Source: an uncultured Chloroflexia bacterium
GTDB lineage: Bacteria > Chloroflexota > Anaerolineae > CG2-30-64-16
Direction: 5' to 3'
DNA: 64,000 nucleotides
Assembly: GCA_963810095.1 (NCBI GenBank)
Contig: CAWEMM010000010.1
Coordinates: forward strand, 64,001 to 128,000
Made by a program: the position numbers and the translations under genes. The first letter of the stretch is position 1. Every line of letters starts with the position of its first letter. A model generated the notes under the pieces. That model saw only the letters and a list, made by a program, of their open reading frames with translations. It was not told the DNA's origin and did not search any database. Of the stretch, positions 19,477-49,061 are shown one piece after another.

Positions 19477-19942
19477 GAACGACATAAACCAGGTTTCTGC
19501 CAGAAACCTGGTTTCGCCCTCATCCTTCGAGCCCGTCATCGTCGGCTTCACCTGCAACTGGTGCTCCTACCGGGCCGCCGACTCGGCCGGCATGGCCCGC
19601 ATCAAGTACGCACCGAACGTGCGGTTGATCCGGCTGATGTGTTCGGGGCGTTGGGACCCGCAATTCGTGCTCAAGGCGTTCAGCGAGGGCGCGGACGCGG
19701 TGCTGGTCAGCGGCTGCCACCCCGGCGACTGCCACTACCTGGAGCAGAACTACAAAACCATCCGCCGTTTCGAGCTGCTGAAGAAGACGTTGGCCGCCCT
19801 GGGCGTCGAAGAGGGCCGGGTGAAGCTGGTCTGGGCGTCGGCCGCCGAGGGCGCCATCTTGGCCGAGGAGATCGACCACATGGTGGCCGAGGTCAAGGCG
19901 CTGGGGCCCCTGAACTGGCCGGGAGGCAAGAATGGCAGCTAA
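19469..19942 (+). CDS. mvhD: MvhD [2Fe-2S] adaptor subunit
   Basis: FTCNWCSY.AAD, LMCSGR, GCHPGDCHY, WASAAEG. Confidence 0.93.
   Translation: MPENDINQVSARNLVSPSSFEPVIVGFTCNWCSYRAADSAGMARIKYAPNVRLIRLMCSGRWDPQFVLKAFSEGADAVLVSGCHPGDCHYLEQNYKTIRRFELLKKTLAALGVEEGRVKLVWASAAEGAILAEEIDHMVAEVKALGPLNWPGGKNGS
19486..19515. repeat. family C repeat (GAAACCRGGTTTC doublet) in-frame in the mvhD 5' end; single unit at 19441-19453 in the hdrA 3' end
   Basis: AAACCAGGTTTCTGCCAGAAACCTGGTTTC, nearly identical to intergenic 30386-30415. Confidence 0.8.
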
Positions 19943-20932
19943 CGAGGGCCAGGCGAATGGGCACAAGCCCAAATTCGCGATGTATTGGGCGGCCTCCTGC
20001 GGCGGCTGCGAGATCGCGGTGCTAAACACCCACGAGCTCATTCTGGAGGTCGACGCCAACTTCGACGTCGTCTTCTGGCCCGTCGCAATGGACGCCAAGT
20101 ACAAGGACGTCGAAGCGATGGAGGACGGCTCCATCACGCTCTGTCTCTTCAACGGCGCGATCCGTAACGACGAGAACGAGGAGATGGCCCACTTGCTGCG
20201 TCGGAAATCCCAGATTCTCGTCGCGTTCGGCTCGTGCGCCTGCGAGGGTTGCATTCCCGGACTGGCGAACCTGTACAGCAAGGAGGCCATGCTCGACACG
20301 GCCTTCAGCACGGTCACGACGGACAACCCGCTGAATCTCCGGCCGGTGATCGCATACGATATGCCCGAAGGCAAGATCGAAATCCCGTACATCTACGACA
20401 CGGTGCGCACCCTCGACCAGGTGGTGCGGGTCGACTACACGATGCCCGGTTGCCCGCCCGAGAGCCACCAGATCGCAGCAGTCGTGCAACTGGTCATCGC
20501 AGCCCTCCACGGCGAGGCGAGCCTGCCGCCGCGCGGTTCTGTGATCGGCGCGGGCAACAGCACCGTGTGCGACGAGTGCCAGCGCACGCGCTCGAGAAGG
20601 TGCTCACGGAGTTCCGGCGCATGGCAACCTACCAACCCGAGCCGGTCCAATGCCTGCTCGAGCAGGGGATCCTTTGCTCGGGGATGGCGACCCGCTCGGG
20701 CTGCAACGCCCGCTGCCCGACCGCTAATATGCCTTGCATCGGCTGCTACGGGCCGGCCGCGGGGGTGGTCGACCAGGGCGCGCGCATGATGAGCGCGGTC
20801 GCTTCGGTGATCGGGAGCAACGACCCGAAGGAAATCAGGCGTATCCTTGACGGCATCCCCGATCCTGCCGGGACGTTCTACCGTTTCAGCCTGCCCAGCA
20901 GCCTGCTTCGCCACGGGCGGACGACGAGTTAG
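19932..20932 (+). CDS. mvhG: [NiFe] hydrogenase small subunit MvhG, frameshift near 20590
   Basis: SCGGC, FGSCA, PGCPP, VCDEC in the first frame; CLLEQG..C.G..TRSGC.A.CP....CIGCYGP in the second. Confidence 0.9.
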
Positions 20933-21381
20933 CAACGGATTACACGGATTTCCGGGGCGTTTCATTGGGAGTAGCCTGTGACGCCACTGTTGTATGAGGA
21001 GCTCACCTATGCCGTGATCGGCGCGGCGATGGAAGTGCATAGAACCCTGGGGCCGGGATATCTCGAAGCGGTTTACCAGGCGGCCCTGGCGGAGGAACTC
21101 CGCTTACGCGGAATTCAGTTTGCCGAACAGAAGCCGCTGTCGGTTGTGTACAAAGGCGTCACGGTCGGCCAGTACGTGGCGGACTTTCTGGTGGAAGACT
21201 CTGTCATCCTGGAGCTCAAGGCCGTAACCACGCTTGCAGCCAACCACAAGGCGCAGGCCATCAACTATCTTGCGGCTACAGGTCTCACGTTGGCGCTGCT
21301 GCTAAACCTTGGCGCTCCATCACTGCAACACGAGCGCCTGATCCGTTTACCAAAATCCGCCAAATCCGTGTAATCCGTTGC
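20932..21381. mobile_element. putative GxxExxY element bounded by perfect 20-bp inverted repeats
   Basis: GCAACGGATTACACGGATTT (20932-20951) and AAATCCGTGTAATCCGTTGC (21362-21381) are exact reverse complements. Confidence 0.7.
20978..21373 (+). CDS. GxxExxY protein (PD-(D/E)XK-like)
   Basis: IGAAMEVHRTLGPGYLEAVY, ADFLVEDSVILELKAV, AQAINYL.ATG....LLLN. Confidence 0.93.
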   Translation: MTPLLYEELTYAVIGAAMEVHRTLGPGYLEAVYQAALAEELRLRGIQFAEQKPLSVVYKGVTVGQYVADFLVEDSVILELKAVTTLAANHKAQAINYLAATGLTLALLLNLGAPSLQHERLIRLPKSAKSV

Positions 21382-21402
21382 CAAGCGGTGTCGGAGGGAG
21401 TA

Positions 21403-22869
21403 ATGCAGAGAATCACGATCGATCCGATCACGCGGCTGGAAGGCCACGGCAAAATTACGATCTTCCTGAACGACGAGGGCGACGTTGCCAACACCTACTT
21501 CCAAATCCCCGAACTGCGCGGGTTCGAGCAGTTTGCGGTGGGCCGCCCCGTCGAGGAAATGGCGGTGATCACGAACCGCATCTGCGGCGTGTGCCCCGAA
21601 GCGCACCACATGGCCGCAGCCAAGGCGGCCGATGCCGCGTATCACGTCACCCCGCCCCGCACCGGCCGCATGTTGCGCGAACTGCTGTACAGCGCCTTCT
21701 ACTGCACCGATCACACGACCCACTTCTATGCGCTGGGCGGCCCGGATTTCATCATGGGACCGGACGCGCCGGTAGCGGAGCGCAATATCCTCGGCGTGAT
21801 CCACAAGGTAGGGCTCGAGGTCGGCGGCAAGGTCATCCAAATGCGCAAGTACGGGCACACAGTCGTCGAAATGATCGGCGGCCGCAAGGTGCACCCGTGC
21901 ACTTCGATTCCGGGCGGCGTGAGCCACGGCATCACGGAGGAGCAGCGCCGGGAGATCGAGGCGATGGGGCGATGGGCCGTCGAGTTCGCCCAGTTCACGA
22001 TGCAGGCCTTCAACGACCTTGTCCTGGGGAACGAGGTCTACCGCGACTTGATCCTTGGCGACGCCTACCTGCACCGCACCTATTCGATCGGGATGGTGGA
22101 CGAGAACAACAAGGTCAACTTCTACGACGGCAAGATCAGCGTGGTCGACCCGAACGGCGCGCGCATCGGAAAATATGCAGCGCCCGAGTACACCGACTGG
22201 ATCGCCGAACACGTCGAGCCGTGGACCTATCTGAAGTTCCCCTATCTCAAGAAGGTGGGCTGGAAGGGGTTTGTCGACGGGCCGGACTCTGGCGTGTACA
22301 TGGCGACGCCCTTGTCGAGGCTCAATGCGGCCGATGGGATGGCTACCCCGTGTGCGCAGGCGGAGTACGAGCGGTTCTATGGCACGATCGGCAGCAAGCC
22401 CGTGCATCACCGGCTGGCGATTCACTGGGCGCGGCTGATCGAGTTGATGTACGCAGCCGAGCGTTGGGTTGAGTTGGCAACCGACCCCGAGATCACTTCG
22501 CCCCACGTGCGCACCGTGCCGGACGCTACGCCCACCGAGGGCGTCGGCGTCGTGGAGGCGCCGCGCGGCACCTTAACCCATCACTACTGGACCGACGAAC
22601 GCGGGGTGGTCACGAGGGCCAACCTGGTTGTGGGCACGACGAACAACTACGCCCCGATCTCGATGTCGATCTCTAAGGCAGCCAGTACGTTCATTAAGCA
22701 CGGGACAGTTGTAACGGAGGGGCTGCTGAACCGGGTCGAAATGGCATTTCGGGCGTACGATCCCTGCTTCGGCTGCGCCACCCACAGCCTGCCCGGTCAA
22801 ATGCCGCTCGAACTGACCATCCGCGACGCGGCCGGCGAAGTCGTGCAGATTTTGCGACGCGATGGATAG
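21403..22869 (+). CDS. mvhA: group 3c [NiFe] hydrogenase large subunit MvhA
   Basis: TRLEGHG, RGFE, RICGVC (L1), EAPRG, RAYDPCFGCATH (L2) plus C-terminal extension. Confidence 0.95.
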   Translation: MQRITIDPITRLEGHGKITIFLNDEGDVANTYFQIPELRGFEQFAVGRPVEEMAVITNRICGVCPEAHHMAAAKAADAAYHVTPPRTGRMLRELLYSAFYCTDHTTHFYALGGPDFIMGPDAPVAERNILGVIHKVGLEVGGKVIQMRKYGHTVVEMIGGRKVHPCTSIPGGVSHGITEEQRREIEAMGRWAVEFAQFTMQAFNDLVLGNEVYRDLILGDAYLHRTYSIGMVDENNKVNFYDGKISVVDPNGARIGKYAAPEYTDWIAEHVEPWTYLKFPYLKKVGWKGFVDGPDSGVYMATPLSRLNAADGMATPCAQAEYERFYGTIGSKPVHHRLAIHWARLIELMYAAERWVELATDPEITSPHVRTVPDATPTEGVGVVEAPRGTLTHHYWTDERGVVTRANLVVGTTNNYAPISMSISKAASTFIKHGTVVTEGLLNRVEMAFRAYDPCFGCATHSLPGQMPLELTIRDAAGEVVQILRRDG

Positions 22870-22875
22870 TCCCTC

Positions 22876-22941
22876 TCAACACAAAGACACCGAGGCACAA
22901 TGAAACCTCACCACCTCCGTGTCTTTGTGCCTTTGTGTTGA
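22876..22941. repeat. family A palindrome
   Basis: TCAACACAAAGACACCGAGGCACAA...GTGTCTTTGTGCCTTTGTGTTGA just after the mvhA stop. Confidence 0.85.
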
Positions 22942-22964
22942 ACGAGCCTTCGCCTGAGGGGGTT

Positions 22965-23423
22965 ATGGAGTCACCGCGCACGCTCGTCCTCGGACTCGGC
23001 AATCCGATCCTGCGCGATGACGGGGTCGGCTGGCGGGTGGTCGAGGAGGCGCAGCGCCGGGCGCCGCACGTCACTGCCGAGTTTGACTGCGTGGCACTGG
23101 GCGGCCTGGCACTGATGGAGCGGCTGATCGGCTATGAGAGGGCAATCTTGGTCGACGCGATCCAGACCGCAGATGGTCTGCCGGGTTCAGTTTATCGCCT
23201 CGACCTGGACGATCTTCCAACCATGCATGCGAACGCCATCCATGACGCCTCGCTCAAGGATGCGCTCGTGCTCGGCCGGCGACTGGGCGCCGTGCTGCCG
23301 TCCCAGCTGTTGATTATCGCGGTCGAAGCTGCGGACGTGTTGAACTTTGGGGAAACGCTGTCGCCGCCGGTCGAGGCTGCCGTGCCGGCCGCTGTGGACG
23401 CGGTGCTTGCGGCGCTAGTCTGA
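22965..23423 (+). CDS. hydrogenase maturation protease
   Basis: LGLGNPILRDDGVG, VDAI, HD, GETLSPPV. Confidence 0.92.
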   Translation: MESPRTLVLGLGNPILRDDGVGWRVVEEAQRRAPHVTAEFDCVALGGLALMERLIGYERAILVDAIQTADGLPGSVYRLDLDDLPTMHANAIHDASLKDALVLGRRLGAVLPSQLLIIAVEAADVLNFGETLSPPVEAAVPAAVDAVLAALV

Positions 23424-23447
23424 GAGGGGCTGGCGCGGGTTGAGCTT

Positions 23448-23509
23448 AACCACAAAGACACCAAGAAACGAAGGTTCTGTGCCCTTCAGTGTCTTCGTGT
23501 CTTTGTGTT
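23448..23509. repeat. family A palindrome
   Basis: AACCACAAAGACACCAAGAAAC...GTGTCTTCGTGTCTTTGTGTT. Confidence 0.85.
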
Positions 23510-23572
23510 GAGTGCCTTAGGTCCACAGGGACGCGACCGGCCCAGCCCCCATCAGGATAAGGGAGGGACCAC

Positions 23573-24028
23573 ATGATCTCACCGGAGATGTTACGCCGCC
23601 ACAGGTTTTCGGGCGGGCTGCGCGATGACGAGCTGGCAGCGATTGCCATGATTGCAGAGGAGTGCGGGTATCCCGACGGGGGCATCATCTTTCGCGAGGG
23701 TGAGCGGGCCGGGCACTTCTACATCCTGACGTCAGGCAGTGTGGACCTGGTCTACGAAATCCACCATCCCGGTGGTGTCGACACGTCCTACGTCGGCTCA
23801 ATCAACACAGGAGAGCCGTTCGGCATCTCGGCGTTCGTCGAACCTTACATCTTCAATGCTACGGGGCAGGCGCACGGCGCCGTCAAGGCGATCGCGATCG
23901 ACGCGGCCGCGCTGCGCGCGCTGTCGGAAGTCGACTGCCATCTCGGCTACACGGTCATGCGGCAGGTCGCAGTCGCCTTGGCCGAGCGCCTCAACTTTGC
24001 GCGGGTGCAGCTCGCCGCGTGCGGGTGA
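23573..24028 (+). CDS. stand-alone cyclic-nucleotide-binding domain protein
   Basis: IFREGE....FYIL.SG.V, GEPFG; no HTH. Confidence 0.85.
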   Translation: MISPEMLRRHRFSGGLRDDELAAIAMIAEECGYPDGGIIFREGERAGHFYILTSGSVDLVYEIHHPGGVDTSYVGSINTGEPFGISAFVEPYIFNATGQAHGAVKAIAIDAAALRALSEVDCHLGYTVMRQVAVALAERLNFARVQLAACG

Positions 24029-24034
24029 GAAGAC

Positions 24035-24113
24035 ATAACACAAAGACACGAGAGCGCAACCGAGCCGGAGCAGGTCCGCCTTGCATCTTCGTGTCTTTGT
24101 GGCTTTGTGTTAT
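24035..24113. repeat. family A palindrome between convergent genes
   Basis: ATAACACAAAGACACGAGAG...CTTCGTGTCTTTGTGGCTTTGTGTTAT. Confidence 0.85.
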
Positions 24114-29136: not shown

Positions 29137-29274
29137 TATAACTCAAACCGGGCTGACTGGCAAAGGGCAGTTGTTCAGTCGCAAGATGACCTCGCGCACG
29201 CGCGTCCACAGCGCGTCCGTTCCACTTTGCGACTAGAAATCCACCCGCGTGGCCGGACAACGCCGAATGAAAAT

Positions 29275-29364
29275 AGGACACTGATTGAACGGATTCGACT
29301 GATTATCAAGATCTTGGTCCCAACGGGCAGTGCAAATCAGTTCAATCAGATAAATCAGCGTCCT
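29275..29364. repeat. family B palindrome (GGACACTGATTGAACGGATT...AATCAGCGTCC)
   Basis: Arms of 9-nt CTGATT/CGGATT units, just after the hypB stop. Confidence 0.8.
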
Positions 29365-29372
29365 TTTTCAGA

Positions 29373-48974: not shown

Positions 48975-49061
48975 GGACGCTGATGCAACTGATTAACCTG
49001 ATCTACACTGTCCTTTGGCTGAAGATCGTGATGATCAGTCCCATCCGTTCAATCAGTGTCC
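48975..49061. repeat. family B palindrome
   Basis: GGACGCTGATGCAACTGATTAACCTGATC...GATCAGTCCCATCCGTTCAATCAGTGTCC. Confidence 0.8.

What the first reader, a model, noticed from the sequence alone, without database searches (positions are those of the whole stretch)
20932..21381. GxxExxY nuclease gene inside perfect 20-bp terminal inverted repeats, inserted between mvhG and mvhA: candidate new mobile element
Seen: GCAACGGATTACACGGATTT begins on the last base of the mvhG stop codon. Its exact reverse complement ends 21 bp before the mvhA ATG. The only cargo is a 131-aa GxxExxY gene, whose stop codon lies inside the right repeat, and whose last residues (KSAKSV) are encoded by three 9-nt AATCCG-containing units. 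No target-site duplication, DDE transposase or HUH transposase is visible. Known: GxxExxY (TIGR04256/PDDEXK_3) is a PD-(D/E)XK-like family of unknown function, and mvhG and mvhA are normally adjacent. Inference: this 450-bp unit is a minimal element mobilised by its own GxxExxY protein and lands harmlessly at stop codons, analogous to RAYT-REP systems but with a different enzyme.
Basis: partly seen in the sequence, partly recalled or inferred. Interest (0 to 1): 0.9.

Follow-up and report, generated by a model that had tools for sequence, protein, structure and literature searches.

The report
Nuclease gene framed by repeat arrays
A small nuclease gene wedged between two hydrogenase genes is framed by mirror-image arrays of 9-letter repeats, and the same pairing surrounds this gene family in many bacterial phyla, so it looks like an undescribed kind of repeat-spreading system.

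Summary
A 131-aa GxxExxY/PDDEXK_3 gene (20978-21373) lies between mvhG and mvhA inside a perfect 20-nt inverted repeat. The repeat extends to 23 nt with one mismatch and contains the mvhG TAG stop.

This is not a one-off. In 114 GxxExxY loci from about 10 phyla, 86 have flanking inverted arrays of tandem 8-10-nt units. Only 1 of 250 shifted control positions does. Unit sequence follows the protein clade, not the host. Paralogs in one genome carry different units.

The window's genome also holds gene-less hairpins built from such arrays: about 25 loci of the ACGAATT type, about 100 of the ACTGATT type and at least 48 of the CACAAAG type. The first two types were not found, or barely found, in same-genus genomes. 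No Y1/RAYT transposase was found.

The mvhG-mvhA junction is empty in 4 relatives and holds a GxxExxY gene in 4 others.

Best reading (about 0.5): a REPIN-RAYT-like system run by a PD-(D/E)XK nuclease. Mobilisation by the protein is inferred, not shown.

Against it:
- There is one gene per repeat type and no target-site duplication.
- A single old insertion at this junction is not rejected (AU p 0.08).
- One congener has 120 array hits but no detected gene (75% complete assembly).

The parts
19932..20932 (+). mvhG (hydrogenase small subunit). It reads in two frames in this assembly, with the break near 20583-20593. Its TAG stop (20930-20932) lies inside the element's left arm.
   Evidence: Pfam Oxidored_q6 6.5e-23 on the N-terminal part. 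The G007 MvhG aligns at residues 9-218 in frame 1 and 223-332 in frame 3. A contig of run X3 carries an extra T after 20593 that restores R-S-E-K-V.
20929..20951 (+). Left arm. It is 23 nt long, and the perfect 20-nt repeat runs from 20932. It holds two 9-nt units (AACGGATT-A, CACGGATT-T) behind TTAGC.
20952..20977 (+). Spacer with GGGAG (20967-20971) 6 nt before the GTG start. This is a likely ribosome-binding site for the nuclease gene.
   Evidence: Read directly from the sequence. No sigma-70-like promoter was found in 20700-21600.
20978..21373 (+). GxxExxY / PDDEXK_3 gene, 131 aa. Motif G27xxE30xxY33, catalytic-type D69, E79, K81.
   Evidence: AlphaFold2 model with pLDDT 96.8. Foldseek best matches are Cas4 SSO0001 4ic1 (E 1.5e-3, TMq 0.64), the lambda-exonuclease group, 3ijm and Hjc 2wiw.
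21353..21384 (+). Right arm. It holds three in-frame 9-nt units (AAATCCGCC, AAATCCGTG, TAATCCGTT) followed by GCCAA. The inverted-repeat partner is 21362-21384. It encodes KSAKSV-stop.
21385..21402 (+). Spacer with GGAGGGAG, a likely ribosome-binding site for mvhA.
   Evidence: In the other occupied junctions an RBS likewise follows the right end directly.
21403..22869 (+). mvhA (NiFe hydrogenase large subunit)
   Evidence: Pfam NiFeSe_Hases 6e-34. Orthologues in 26 of 41 related genomes, G000 included.
22876..22941 (.). Gene-less hairpin of another type (8-nt units CACAAAGA / TCTTTGTG), directly after the mvhA stop.
23447..23511 (.). Gene-less hairpin of the CACAAAG type, between the protease-like gene (22935-23423) and the next gene (23573-24028).
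24036..24113 (.). Gene-less hairpin of the CACAAAG type after the gene at 23573-24028.
29170..29368 (+). Composite repeat that includes an ACTGATT-type hairpin with 9-nt-unit arms (core at 29281-29312). It is missing from the orthologous intergenic site in G001 and G002.
   Evidence: The edges are approximate.
49025..49056 (-). Core of a second ACTGATT-type hairpin in the window.

Best explanation
The 456-bp unit at 20929-21384 is the gene-bearing member of a family of REP-like hairpin repeats.

Proposed mechanism:
- Each arm is a short array of 2-4 tandem units of about 9 nt. The two arms are mirror images, with GC(C/A)ACG outermost.
- The enclosed 131-aa PD-(D/E)XK protein (GxxExxY family) recognises these units, probably as a dimer or higher oligomer, and cuts at or near the arms.
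- Gene-less hairpins (two arms around a 20-40-nt loop) are non-autonomous copies that the protein maintains or spreads in trans.
- The gene stays at one copy per repeat type and is passed on mostly vertically, with occasional relocation. This is how RAYT genes relate to REPINs, but the enzyme is of a different fold.

At the mvh junction the unit does little harm. It supplies a TAG stop to mvhG, has its own ribosome-binding site, and a ribosome-binding site for mvhA follows it. As RNA, its arms can close a 20-23-bp stem around the nuclease ORF.

Shown here:
- the anatomy of the unit;
- the family-wide gene-array association;
- co-variation of unit with protein clade;
- dispersed gene-less copies;
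- lineage-specific copy numbers;
- empty and filled orthologous sites.

Inferred, not shown:
- that the protein binds or cuts the arrays;
- that it moves them;
- the oligomeric state;
- the RNA consequences.
For: 1. Gene-array association.
- Best upstream/downstream inverted-repeat score is 13 or more in 55 of 76 external GxxExxY loci from about 10 phyla, against 1 of 250 shifted positions in the same loci (L057 dropped for an N run, 3 loci skipped for short flanks).
- 15 of 23 loci in own and five related genomes reach score 12 or more. 16 of 20 further relatives' loci reach 13 or more. Overall 86 of 114 loci reach 13 or more.
- Arm period among those 86: 9 nt in 47, 10 nt in 25, 8 nt in 8, 7 nt in 4, 11 nt in 1, none assigned in 1.
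- Genome-wide control in G000: an exact inverted repeat of 16 nt or more between the flanks in 13 of 5297 ORFs, and 2 of those 13 are among the 3 GxxExxY genes.

2. Layout. F[gene]R is the commonest arrangement, in 20 of 76 loci. R[gene]F was never seen. The stop codon lies inside the right arm in 11 of 55 loci, as it does here.

3. Unit follows protein clade.
- CGCAAAG/CACAAAG clade (support 99), CGCGGAC clade, ACAGGAT (98), CCGCAGATT (97), GCCACGRATT in Chloroflexota (96).
- Paralogs within one genome (G000, G015, G021, G023) sit in different clades and carry the matching units.
- The CGCGGAY unit flanks the orthologous gene in G021, G019 and G014.

4. Gene-less copies in G000.
- 11 complete ACGAATT-type hairpins plus solo arms, 38 arms in all. 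The same type frames paralog C6:1630275-1630619.
- One hairpin of our own GCAACGG type at C12:217422-217495, and an exact solo copy of the 20-mer at C7:13385.

5. Lineage-specific copy numbers.
- CACGAATTNCACGAATT: 22 hits in G000; 0 in 6 of 7 congeners and 3 in the seventh, G004. Other genomes: 69 in G017, 54 in G018, 36 in G023. The reversed control pattern gave 0 everywhere.
- ACTGATT type: 103 hits in G000 and 0 in all 7 congeners. G024 has 13, and there the repeat frames a GxxExxY gene.

6. Empty and filled sites.
- The mvhG-mvhA junction is empty in 4 relatives and holds a GxxExxY gene in 4 others.
- An ACTGATT element in the window is missing from the orthologous spacer in G001 and G002.

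7. No Y1/RAYT transposase (PF01797) was found in G000, which is 88.5% complete. The control search hit 6 of 14 reference genomes.

8. The protein keeps the catalytic set. G, G, E, D, E, K, Q and N are invariant across 13 diverse members. It folds confidently as a PD-(D/E)XK core.

9. Nine ORFs in 6 relatives carry two GxxExxY domains in tandem (268-301 aa). This hints that a dimer is the working unit (inference).
Against: - No assay or read evidence of movement exists. No contig joint skips the element in runs X1-X4, but contigs cannot show rare forms.
- G001 has 120 hits of the CACAAAG array, yet no GxxExxY gene was found there with the family model or with paralog 2 as query. The assembly is only 75% complete.
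- The commonest hairpin in G000 (ACTGATT, 103 hits) has no closely cognate gene in the assembly. The best match to the G024 gene that this repeat frames is our own gene, at 44% identity.
- Paralog 2 of G000, which belongs to the clade whose members carry CACAAAG-type units, has only a degenerate flank repeat (score 12).
- 28 of 114 loci show no repeat at the threshold.
- GxxExxY sits at the same mvh junction in G023, G022, G017 (frameshifted) and G021, and downstream of mvhG in a Thermoflexales MAG. In the careful tree our gene groups with three of these (support 82/91). A single origin of all five is not rejected (AU p 0.08; the group was named after seeing the tree). This locus may therefore be old and vertically inherited.
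- No target-site duplication was found. The divergence of spacers prevented exact mapping of insertion edges.
- Ordinary genes also lie between hairpins, so hairpins are general intergenic repeats.
- The gene is rare on plasmids: 7 of 72,556 records.
Confidence: 0.5

Rival explanations
1. Homing into hairpins. The hairpin repeats spread by some other means, and GxxExxY is a free-standing homing-type endonuclease gene. It cuts an unoccupied hairpin of its own type and is copied into the loop by repair, using the arms as homology. That would give arm-gene-arm units, and the arm type would reflect target specificity.
For: - The arm-gene-arm (F[g]R) layout is what insertion into a hairpin loop would give (20 of 76 loci).
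- Gene-less hairpins of the same type exist as potential targets.
- Unit type follows protein clade.
- Hairpins occur without a detected gene in G001, and a type without a cognate gene occurs in G000.
- Empty and filled states of one site are seen.
Against: - There is one gene against tens of unoccupied hairpins of the same type in G000. Efficient homing should fill them or select resistant ones.
- In L011, L012, L013, L056 and L058 the gene lies between two complete hairpins, not inside one.
- Paralogs are 40-64% identical, so no recent copying of the gene is visible.
- The arms are only about 20-35 nt, which is short for recombinational repair (general knowledge, recalled).
Confidence: 0.15
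2. Host-side hairpin handling, not mobility. The arrays are intergenic structural or regulatory hairpins, such as mRNA stem-loops between cistrons, RNase III sites or protein-binding sites. GxxExxY would be a cellular nuclease or binding protein that acts on them, for example by resolving extruded cruciforms. Its gene would be autoregulated through its own flanking sites. Copy-number differences would reflect ordinary repeat turnover.
For: - Four successive junctions of this operon carry such hairpins.
- The right ends are followed directly by ribosome-binding sites.
- The arms close a 20-bp stem in both the MFE and the centroid RNA folds.
- Foldseek lists the junction resolvase Hjc among weak matches (2wiw, E 0.03).
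- The gene is chromosomal, one per type, and rare on plasmids.
Against: - A housekeeping role fits poorly with the patchy presence. 9 of 41 relatives lack the gene, and several copies are broken: Herpetosiphon has an in-frame TAG and a frameshifted second copy, and the G017 copy is frameshifted.
- One repeat type has about 100 copies in G000 and none in 7 congeners, which needs active spread.
- The whole-unit RNA fold is not more stable than shuffles (z -1.56).
- There is no Rfam match.
Confidence: 0.2
3. Old resident gene at this locus. The GxxExxY gene entered the mvhG-mvhA spacer once in an ancestor of this bacterial family and has been inherited vertically, with clean losses in several lineages. 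The element at this site is then no longer mobile, whatever its origin.
For: - The gene is present at the same junction in G023, G022, G017 and G021, and downstream of mvhG in the Thermoflexales MAG L056.
- Our gene groups with L035, L011 and L056 (82/91), and monophyly of all five is not rejected (AU p 0.08).
- Every occupied junction has the same TAG-at-left-end and RBS-after-right-end design.
Against: - Both same-genus genomes whose junction was recovered (G007, G001; MvhA 89-90% identical) and G016 (86%) are empty, with a compact 10-nt spacer.
- Identity of the nuclease does not track MvhA. Against G021 it is 74% where MvhA is 68%. Against G023 it is 64% where MvhA is 85%.
- Two layouts occur at the site: a single arm pair, or two full hairpins.
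- By simple counting on identity ranks, at least 6 losses are needed against about 3 gains. This is an inference, not a tree-based reconstruction.
Confidence: 0.3

Closest known systems
REPIN-RAYT systems (REP doublets with a single-copy Y1/HUH transposase, TnpA-REP)
   Same: - A single-copy nuclease-type gene is framed by inverted copies of a repeat, and the same repeat is dispersed as tens to about a hundred gene-less palindromic elements in intergenic DNA.
- Repeat type co-varies with the gene's clade.
- Copy numbers are lineage-specific.
- No target-site duplication is seen.
The system features are from abstracts seen in the listing (RAREFAN preprint 10.1101/2022.05.22.493013; PMC8266576).
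   Different: - The enzyme is a roughly 125-aa PD-(D/E)XK protein, not a Y1/HUH transposase. PF01797 was not found in this genome.
- Each arm is a tandem array of 8-10-nt units rather than a single REP hairpin with a conserved tetranucleotide.
- Several paralogous gene-repeat pairs coexist in one genome.
- Activity on the repeats is untested.
MITEs and their parent insertion sequences, e.g. Correia elements of Neisseria (recalled)
   Same: - Short elements with terminal inverted repeats, with and without a gene.
- They insert between or at the ends of genes, are co-transcribed, and can form RNA stems.
   Different: - No DDE or other known transposase is present, and no target-site duplication.
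- There are no multiple near-identical full-length copies. The three paralogs are 40-64% identical.
- The ends are internally periodic.
Homing endonuclease genes, including the PD-(D/E)XK enzyme I-Ssp6803I (recalled, not searched here)
   Same: - A small nuclease gene sits as the only cargo at a site that exists both empty and filled.
- The nuclease fold is shared at superfamily level.
   Different: - It is not inside an intron or intein.
- Many unoccupied cognate hairpins persist next to one gene.
- No sequence relationship was tested.
23S rRNA intervening sequences with an enclosed small ORF (S23p). Only the abstract in the listing was seen: PMC4990558.
   Same: A small ORF is bracketed by inverted repeats that can close an RNA stem around it inside a longer transcript.
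   Different: - The host transcript is an mRNA operon, not rRNA.
- The ORF belongs to another family.
- RNase III processing here is only a conjecture.
Transposon ends with several binding sites for the element's own protein (Tn7, Mu), and TnsA as a PD-(D/E)XK transposition nuclease (recalled)
   Same: Each end holds several direct copies of a short site, the two ends are inverted relative to each other, and a PD-(D/E)XK nuclease takes part in end cleavage.
   Different: There is no TnsB/DDE partner, no ATPase and no target selector. The unit is 0.45 kb, not many kb.

Membership tests
GxxExxY / PDDEXK_3 (TIGR04256, PF13366) | Profile match above the curated cut-off | tested here: met
   TIGR04256 scores 144.5 bits (cut-off 35). 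PF13366 scores 139.1 bits (cut-off 22)..
GxxExxY / PDDEXK_3 (TIGR04256, PF13366) | G-x-x-E-x-x-Y motif plus the D...(D/E)-x-K catalytic motif | tested here: met
   G27, E30, Y33, D69, E79 and K81 are read from the ORF. G, E, D, E and K are invariant in 13 members; Y is nearly invariant (at least 90%).
GxxExxY / PDDEXK_3 (TIGR04256, PF13366) | PD-(D/E)XK (restriction-endonuclease-like) fold | tested here: met
   The model has pLDDT 96.8, with helix-helix then a mixed sheet. Every top Foldseek match is a PD-(D/E)XK nuclease (Cas4 4ic1, lambda-exonuclease-like 3syy, 3ijm, Hjc), but none passes E 0.001.
REPIN-RAYT system | The associated gene is a Y1/HUH transposase (Y1_Tnp, PF01797) | tested here: not met
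   The gene is a PD-(D/E)XK protein. No PF01797 match exists in the 88.5%-complete genome.
REPIN-RAYT system | A single-copy gene flanked by inverted copies of the dispersed repeat | tested here: met
   for two of the three genes in G000. 86 of 114 loci overall.
REPIN-RAYT system | A population of gene-less palindromic copies in the same genome | tested here: met
   ACGAATT type: 38 arms, of which 11 are full hairpins. Our GCAACGG type has only 1 hairpin plus 1 solo arm. ACTGATT has 103 hits, and CACAAAG has at least 48 hairpins, without clean cognate flanks.
REPIN-RAYT system | The repeat population depends on the gene and decays after its loss | tested here: inconclusive
   8 of the 9 gene-less relatives have 4 or fewer hits of each of the four patterns. 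G001 has 120 CACAAAG hits and no detected gene, at 75% completeness.
Insertion sequence / autonomous transposon | Known transposase class (DDE, serine, tyrosine, HUH) | tested here: not met
   The only ORF family hit in the unit is PDDEXK_3.
Insertion sequence / autonomous transposon | Target-site duplication | tested here: not met
   The flanks GGACGACGAG and GCGGTGTCGG share no repeat.
Insertion sequence / autonomous transposon | Several near-identical full-length copies | tested here: not met
   G000 has 3 paralogs. They are 40% and 64% identical to ours.
Homing endonuclease gene | The nuclease cuts the unoccupied allele of its own insertion site | not testable with these tools
   This needs a cleavage assay on gene-less hairpins or on the empty mvh junction.
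Known RNA family (Rfam) | Covariance-model match | tested here: not met
   0 matches at E up to 1 in 20000-22500.

The most novel reading that the evidence does not exclude
GxxExxY proteins are a second, independent class of repeat-making enzymes in bacteria. They are about 125 aa long and of the PD-(D/E)XK fold. Each reads an 8-10-nt unit through a clade-specific recognition code. Each creates and maintains its own family of array-armed hairpins across at least ten phyla. Much of the REP-like intergenic repeat content of Chloroflexota, Planctomycetota, Bacteroidota, Acidobacteriota and others would then be their product. The family would also offer a natural panel of very small sequence-specific nucleases with readable specificities.
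Probability: 0.35. Interest if true: 0.9.

Novelty: new variant of a known kind. Interest (0 to 1): 0.8.

Why it matters
GxxExxY/PDDEXK_3 is a large, widespread family listed as 'function unknown'. The only family-level statement I found is the table entry 'Unknown' in PMC3424549 (passage read). Only three papers hold the word GxxExxY, and neither of the two listed deals with its function; I read the passage of only one of them.

The work here ties the family to a concrete DNA partner that is visible in sequence alone and can be tested at the bench. Each gene names its own candidate recognition site.

If the protein acts on the arrays, three things follow:
- It explains the origin of abundant intergenic hairpin repeats in phyla where no RAYT is present.
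- It adds a second enzyme class to the REPIN-RAYT paradigm.
- It gives paired protein-site data for a specificity code.

It also matters for annotation. These elements supply stop codons and sit between cistrons of operons such as mvh, and their arms are translated into odd C-terminal tails.

Tried and rejected
No earlier notes were used.
- PDB sequence search with the protein found no relative; the best hit had E 0.98 and was unrelated.
- Complex prediction of two copies (alignment A1) returned 'no answer' with score 0.00. It is not used as evidence either way.
- Sequencing runs: no RNA holder was listed. Contigs of X1-X4 cover both junctions. They show no joint across the element and have parts without cover. 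Contigs cannot show rare excised forms, so this says nothing on mobility.
- Target-site and edge mapping by comparison with congeners failed. The spacers are too diverged to place the edges of the ACTGATT element. The second locus was not aligned.
- Promoter scan found no sigma-70-like site in the unit. The one terminator-like site is within chance.
- Rfam found nothing.
- The idea that the hairpins are classical REPINs of a RAYT was rejected for this genome: no PF01797.
- The idea that the 9-nt units are DnaA boxes was considered from memory and dropped. Only an ATCC core would match, and it was not tested.
- The quick tree of 114 rows is poorly resolved (55 of 111 inner branches open). Only starred clades are used.
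- Herpetosiphon aurantiacus DSM 785 was checked as a possible culturable model. Its copy has an in-frame TAG, and its second copy is split across two frames with a TAA inside (reported as two overlapping partial matches).
- Literature: searches for GxxExxY, PDDEXK_3, TIGR04256/PF13366, and IVS/four-helix-bundle/PDDEXK terms, and for REPIN/RAYT/nuclease, found no description of this association. Subscription journals and supplements were not searchable. The NCBIfam/TIGRFAM curator comment for TIGR04256 could not be read and may bear on novelty.
Full report
THE OBSERVATION

- The 20-mer GCAACGGATTACACGGATTT lies at 20932-20951, and its exact reverse complement lies at 21362-21381.
- Nothing else in the window matches within 3 mismatches, and none was expected by chance.
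- The repeat in fact runs for 23 nt with one mismatch (20929-20951 / 21362-21384). The TAG stop of mvhG (20930-20932) therefore belongs to the left arm.
- The only gene inside is a 131-aa ORF (20978-21373). It is a clear member of GxxExxY/PDDEXK_3: TIGR04256 1.6e-42 and PF13366 1.1e-40. It has G27xxE30xxY33 and D69...E79-x-K81.
- Its last six residues and its stop are read from three in-frame 9-nt units of the right arm.
- There is no target-site duplication.
- Contigs of public runs reproduce both junctions without a difference. They may come from the source sample.

THE SAME ANATOMY AROUND OTHER GENES

The window's genome (G000; 6.13 Mb, 65% G+C, 88.5% complete) has three GxxExxY genes.
- C6:1630275-1630619 is framed by GCCACGAATTACACGAATTG... 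and its complement.
- C6:96899-97225 has only a degenerate flank repeat.

I then scored the best ungapped inverted repeat between 250-300 nt upstream and downstream of GxxExxY genes.
- Own genome plus five relatives: 15 of 23 loci score 12 or more, and 15 of the 18 with full flanks.
- 20 further loci of relatives: 16 score 13 or more.
- 80 loci fetched from one-genome-per-species contigs with our protein as query. These are mostly Chloroflexota, and also Planctomycetota, Bacteroidota, Verrucomicrobiota, Acidobacteriota, Pseudomonadota and others. Of these, 55 of 76 score 13 or more. Three were skipped for short flanks, and L057 was dropped because an N run matched itself.
- Control: pseudo-genes shifted by 1-1.5 kb in the same loci score 13 or more in 1 of 250.
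- Recomputed together: 86 of 114 loci score 13 or more.
- Control with real genes: 13 of 5297 ORFs of G000 have an exact flank repeat of 16 nt or more, and two of those 13 are GxxExxY genes.

The arms are arrays of tandem units. The period is 9 nt in 47 loci, 10 nt in 25 and 8 nt in 8.

Where my unit pattern could read the arms, the commonest layout is forward arm, gene, reverse arm (20 of 76 loci). Some genes sit between two complete hairpins. The outward arrangement was never seen.

The right arm starts within 35 nt of the stop in 34 of 55 loci and overlaps the stop in 11. The tail feature seen here is therefore common.

UNIT FOLLOWS PROTEIN

On a tree of the 114 proteins the unit type is clade-specific (quick tree, only starred clades used):
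- C(G/A)CA(A/G)AG units in one clade of 12 (support 99);
- CGCGGA(C/T) in a clade of 5;
- ACAGGAT in a pair (98);
- CCGCAGATT in a clade of Acidobacteriota, Verrucomicrobiota and Planctomycetota (97);
- GCCACG(A/G)ATT in 31 Chloroflexota-type rows (96), which include ours.

Kin share labels, so this alone could be common descent. The telling point is that paralogs inside one genome (G000, G015, G021, G023) fall into different clades. Each carries that clade's unit on both flanks. The CGCGGAY unit frames the orthologous gene in three genomes.

GENE-LESS COPIES AND THEIR DISTRIBUTION

G000 holds dispersed hairpins of about 70-100 nt whose two arms are such arrays.
- ACGAATT type: 38 arms, of which 11 are full hairpins.
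- ACTGATT type: 103 pattern hits.
- CACAAAG type (8-nt units): at least 48 hairpins.
- Our own GCAACGG type: one hairpin plus an exact solo 20-mer.

Three CACAAAG hairpins occupy the next three junctions of this same operon.

Copy numbers are lineage-specific.
- The ACGAATT pattern has 22 hits in G000. Six of seven congeners have 0 and G004 has 3. G017, G018 and G023 have 69, 54 and 36.
- The ACTGATT pattern has 103 hits in G000 and 0 in all seven congeners. G024 has 13, and there an arm pair frames a GxxExxY gene.
- Reversed control patterns gave 0-2 hits per genome.
- An ACTGATT element in the window is absent from the orthologous spacer of G001 and G002.
- No Y1/RAYT transposase was found in G000.

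RESULTS THAT CUT THE OTHER WAY

- G001 has 120 CACAAAG hits, but no GxxExxY gene was found with the family model or with paralog 2. It is 75% complete.
- The ACTGATT family of G000 has no close cognate gene in the assembly. The nearest is our gene, at 44% identity to the G024 gene.
- Ordinary genes also lie between hairpins.
- 28 of 114 genes show no repeat at the threshold.

THE mvhG-mvhA SITE

I located mvhG and/or mvhA at 18 junction loci (G000 plus relatives).
- Empty, with the stop about 10 nt from the ATG: 4 relatives. These are G007 and G001 (same genus) plus G016 and G014.
- Occupied by a GxxExxY gene: G000 and 4 relatives. In G000 and G023 a single arm pair frames the gene. In G022, G017 (frameshifted gene) and G021 two full hairpins flank it.
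- Gene-less hairpins of other unit types: G015, G009 and G020.
- An unrelated 0.9-kb insert: G018.

The rest of the 18 loci are not classed here.

In every occupied case the left end reads TAGC(C/A)ACG, which supplies the stop of mvhG, and a ribosome-binding site follows the right end.

Of the 80 external loci only one, a Thermoflexales MAG, has mvhG upstream. Genes of this clade therefore sit in many contexts.

Nuclease identity does not track MvhA identity: 74% against 68% for G021, and 64% against 85% for G023.

A careful tree nevertheless groups our gene with three junction residents (82/91). An AU test does not reject one clade for all five (p 0.08; the group was named after seeing the tree). 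I cannot tell repeated arrival from one old arrival with clean losses. Either way, the unit is present or absent as a discrete block.

THE PROTEIN

- The AlphaFold2 model is confident (pLDDT 96.8): two helices followed by a mixed sheet.
- Foldseek finds only PD-(D/E)XK nucleases, all weakly: Cas4 SSO0001 (E 1.5e-3, TMq 0.64), lambda-exonuclease-like enzymes, 3ijm and Hjc.
- No solved relative is found by sequence.
- The catalytic-type residues are invariant in 13 diverse members.
- Nine ORFs in six relatives carry two domains in tandem. I take this as a hint that a dimer is the working unit.
- The dimer prediction job gave no answer.

HOW IT MOST LIKELY WORKS

My best reading, at about 0.5, is a REPIN-RAYT-like partnership with a different enzyme.
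- The arrays are multi-site recognition ends for the enclosed nuclease.
- The gene-bearing unit is the single master copy of its repeat type.
- The gene-less hairpins are copies maintained or spread in trans.

The association, the co-variation, the dispersed copies, the lineage-specific numbers and the empty and filled sites are shown. Binding, cutting, movement and oligomeric state are inferred.

As RNA, the arms close a 20-bp stem in both the MFE and centroid folds. The whole fold is no better than shuffles (z -1.56), and no Rfam family matches. Any role in transcript processing is conjecture.

Rivals are:
- homing of the gene into pre-existing hairpins (0.15);
- a host-side role on structural or regulatory hairpins without mobility (0.2);
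- for this locus alone, an old immobile resident (0.3, which is compatible with the family-level reading).

WHAT IS KNOWN

- The family is listed with function 'Unknown' in the PD-(D/E)XK survey (PMC3424549, passage read).
- The word GxxExxY occurs in three papers of the library, of which two were listed. I read the passage in one (PMC8934634). There it is only a neighbour annotation.
- Searches by accession and by related terms gave nothing on repeats.
- REPIN-RAYT features are taken from abstracts in the listing.
- Supplements, subscription journals and the NCBIfam curator note were not available.

VERDICT

The finding is real and generalises far beyond the window. It is best filed as a new variant of the nuclease-plus-dispersed-palindrome kind of system. 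It fails the defining RAYT feature (the Y1 enzyme) but works like that system in every respect that sequence can show.

- Interest: 0.8.
- Confidence that the gene-array association is genuine: about 0.95.
- Confidence that the protein acts on the arrays: about 0.6.
- Confidence that it mobilises them: about 0.45-0.5.

Noticed in passing
window 20583-20593 (mvhG): mvhG reads in two frames in the assembly. The G007 MvhG aligns at residues 9-218 in frame 1 and 223-332 in frame 3. One contig of run X3 (depth 2) has an extra T after 20593 that restores R-S-E-K-V as in the relative. The break is therefore probably an assembly error or a minor variant, not a dead gene.
   Followed up: yes
window 22876-22941, 23447-23511, 24036-24113: Three more gene-less hairpins with arms of 8-nt units (CACAAAGA type) occupy the next three intergenic junctions of the same operon. 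They lie after mvhA, after the protease-like gene and after the following gene. G000 has at least 48 such hairpins.
   Followed up: partly
G000 genome-wide; window about 29170-29368 and 49025-49056: A composite repeat of about 200 nt occurs about 100 times. It consists of a conserved module ending ...CCACTTTGCGAnTAGAC, a small GC hairpin (CACCCCGCG...CGCGGG) and an ACTGATT-type hairpin with 9-nt-unit arms. It was not found in any of 7 congeners. The upstream modules were not analysed.
   Followed up: partly
L062:2080-2500 (Chloroflexota MAG); G018:C378:424-645; G011:C150:2-711: Single arms are amplified in tandem with their spacer. In L062, 11 or more copies of a 38-nt 'left arm plus spacer' lie upstream of the GxxExxY gene. 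In G018, arms repeat at steps of about 39-40 nt. In G011, 13 copies repeat at 58-nt steps. The cause is unknown.
   Followed up: no
relatives, (e.g. G014:C45:41729-42484, G033:C27:56616-57389, G018:C297:9553-10311): Nine ORFs of 260-301 aa in six genomes carry two GxxExxY domains in tandem. They form a lower-scoring subfamily. Their flanks were not examined.
   Followed up: no
L021 (G018:C108), mvhG-mvhA spacer: In G018 the same junction holds an unrelated 0.9-kb insert with two small ORFs in place of a GxxExxY gene or hairpin. The ORFs were not identified.
   Followed up: no
L014, L015, L017 (G015, G009, G020), mvhG-mvhA spacer: Gene-less hairpins of yet other unit types sit at the same junction and supply the mvhG stop. 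The units are TAGACAAGG, and the 8-nt GGTAAACT / CCAATCTA. Whether GxxExxY genes of those genomes carry these units was not resolved.
   Followed up: partly
L080 / G041 (Herpetosiphon aurantiacus DSM 785, CP000875.1): Its GxxExxY gene is framed by TTTTTAGCCACAGATT... and ...AATCTGTGGCTAAAAA and has an in-frame TAG. A second copy at C1:480654-480997 is reported as two overlapping partial matches in different frames, one with a TAA inside, so it looks broken.
   Followed up: yes
Bacteroidota clade (L104, L113, L129, L133): A well-supported clade (100) of Bacteroidota genes has a flank repeat, TGTCTGAAC(T/C)ATGATT, that does not look periodic. Several members scored below threshold. This may be a variant architecture.
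   Followed up: no
C7:13385-13404 of G000: An exact third copy of the 20-mer of our element stands as a solo left arm, followed by a third unit and then an unrelated terminator-like hairpin. It lies upstream of a peptidase-like gene.
   Followed up: partly
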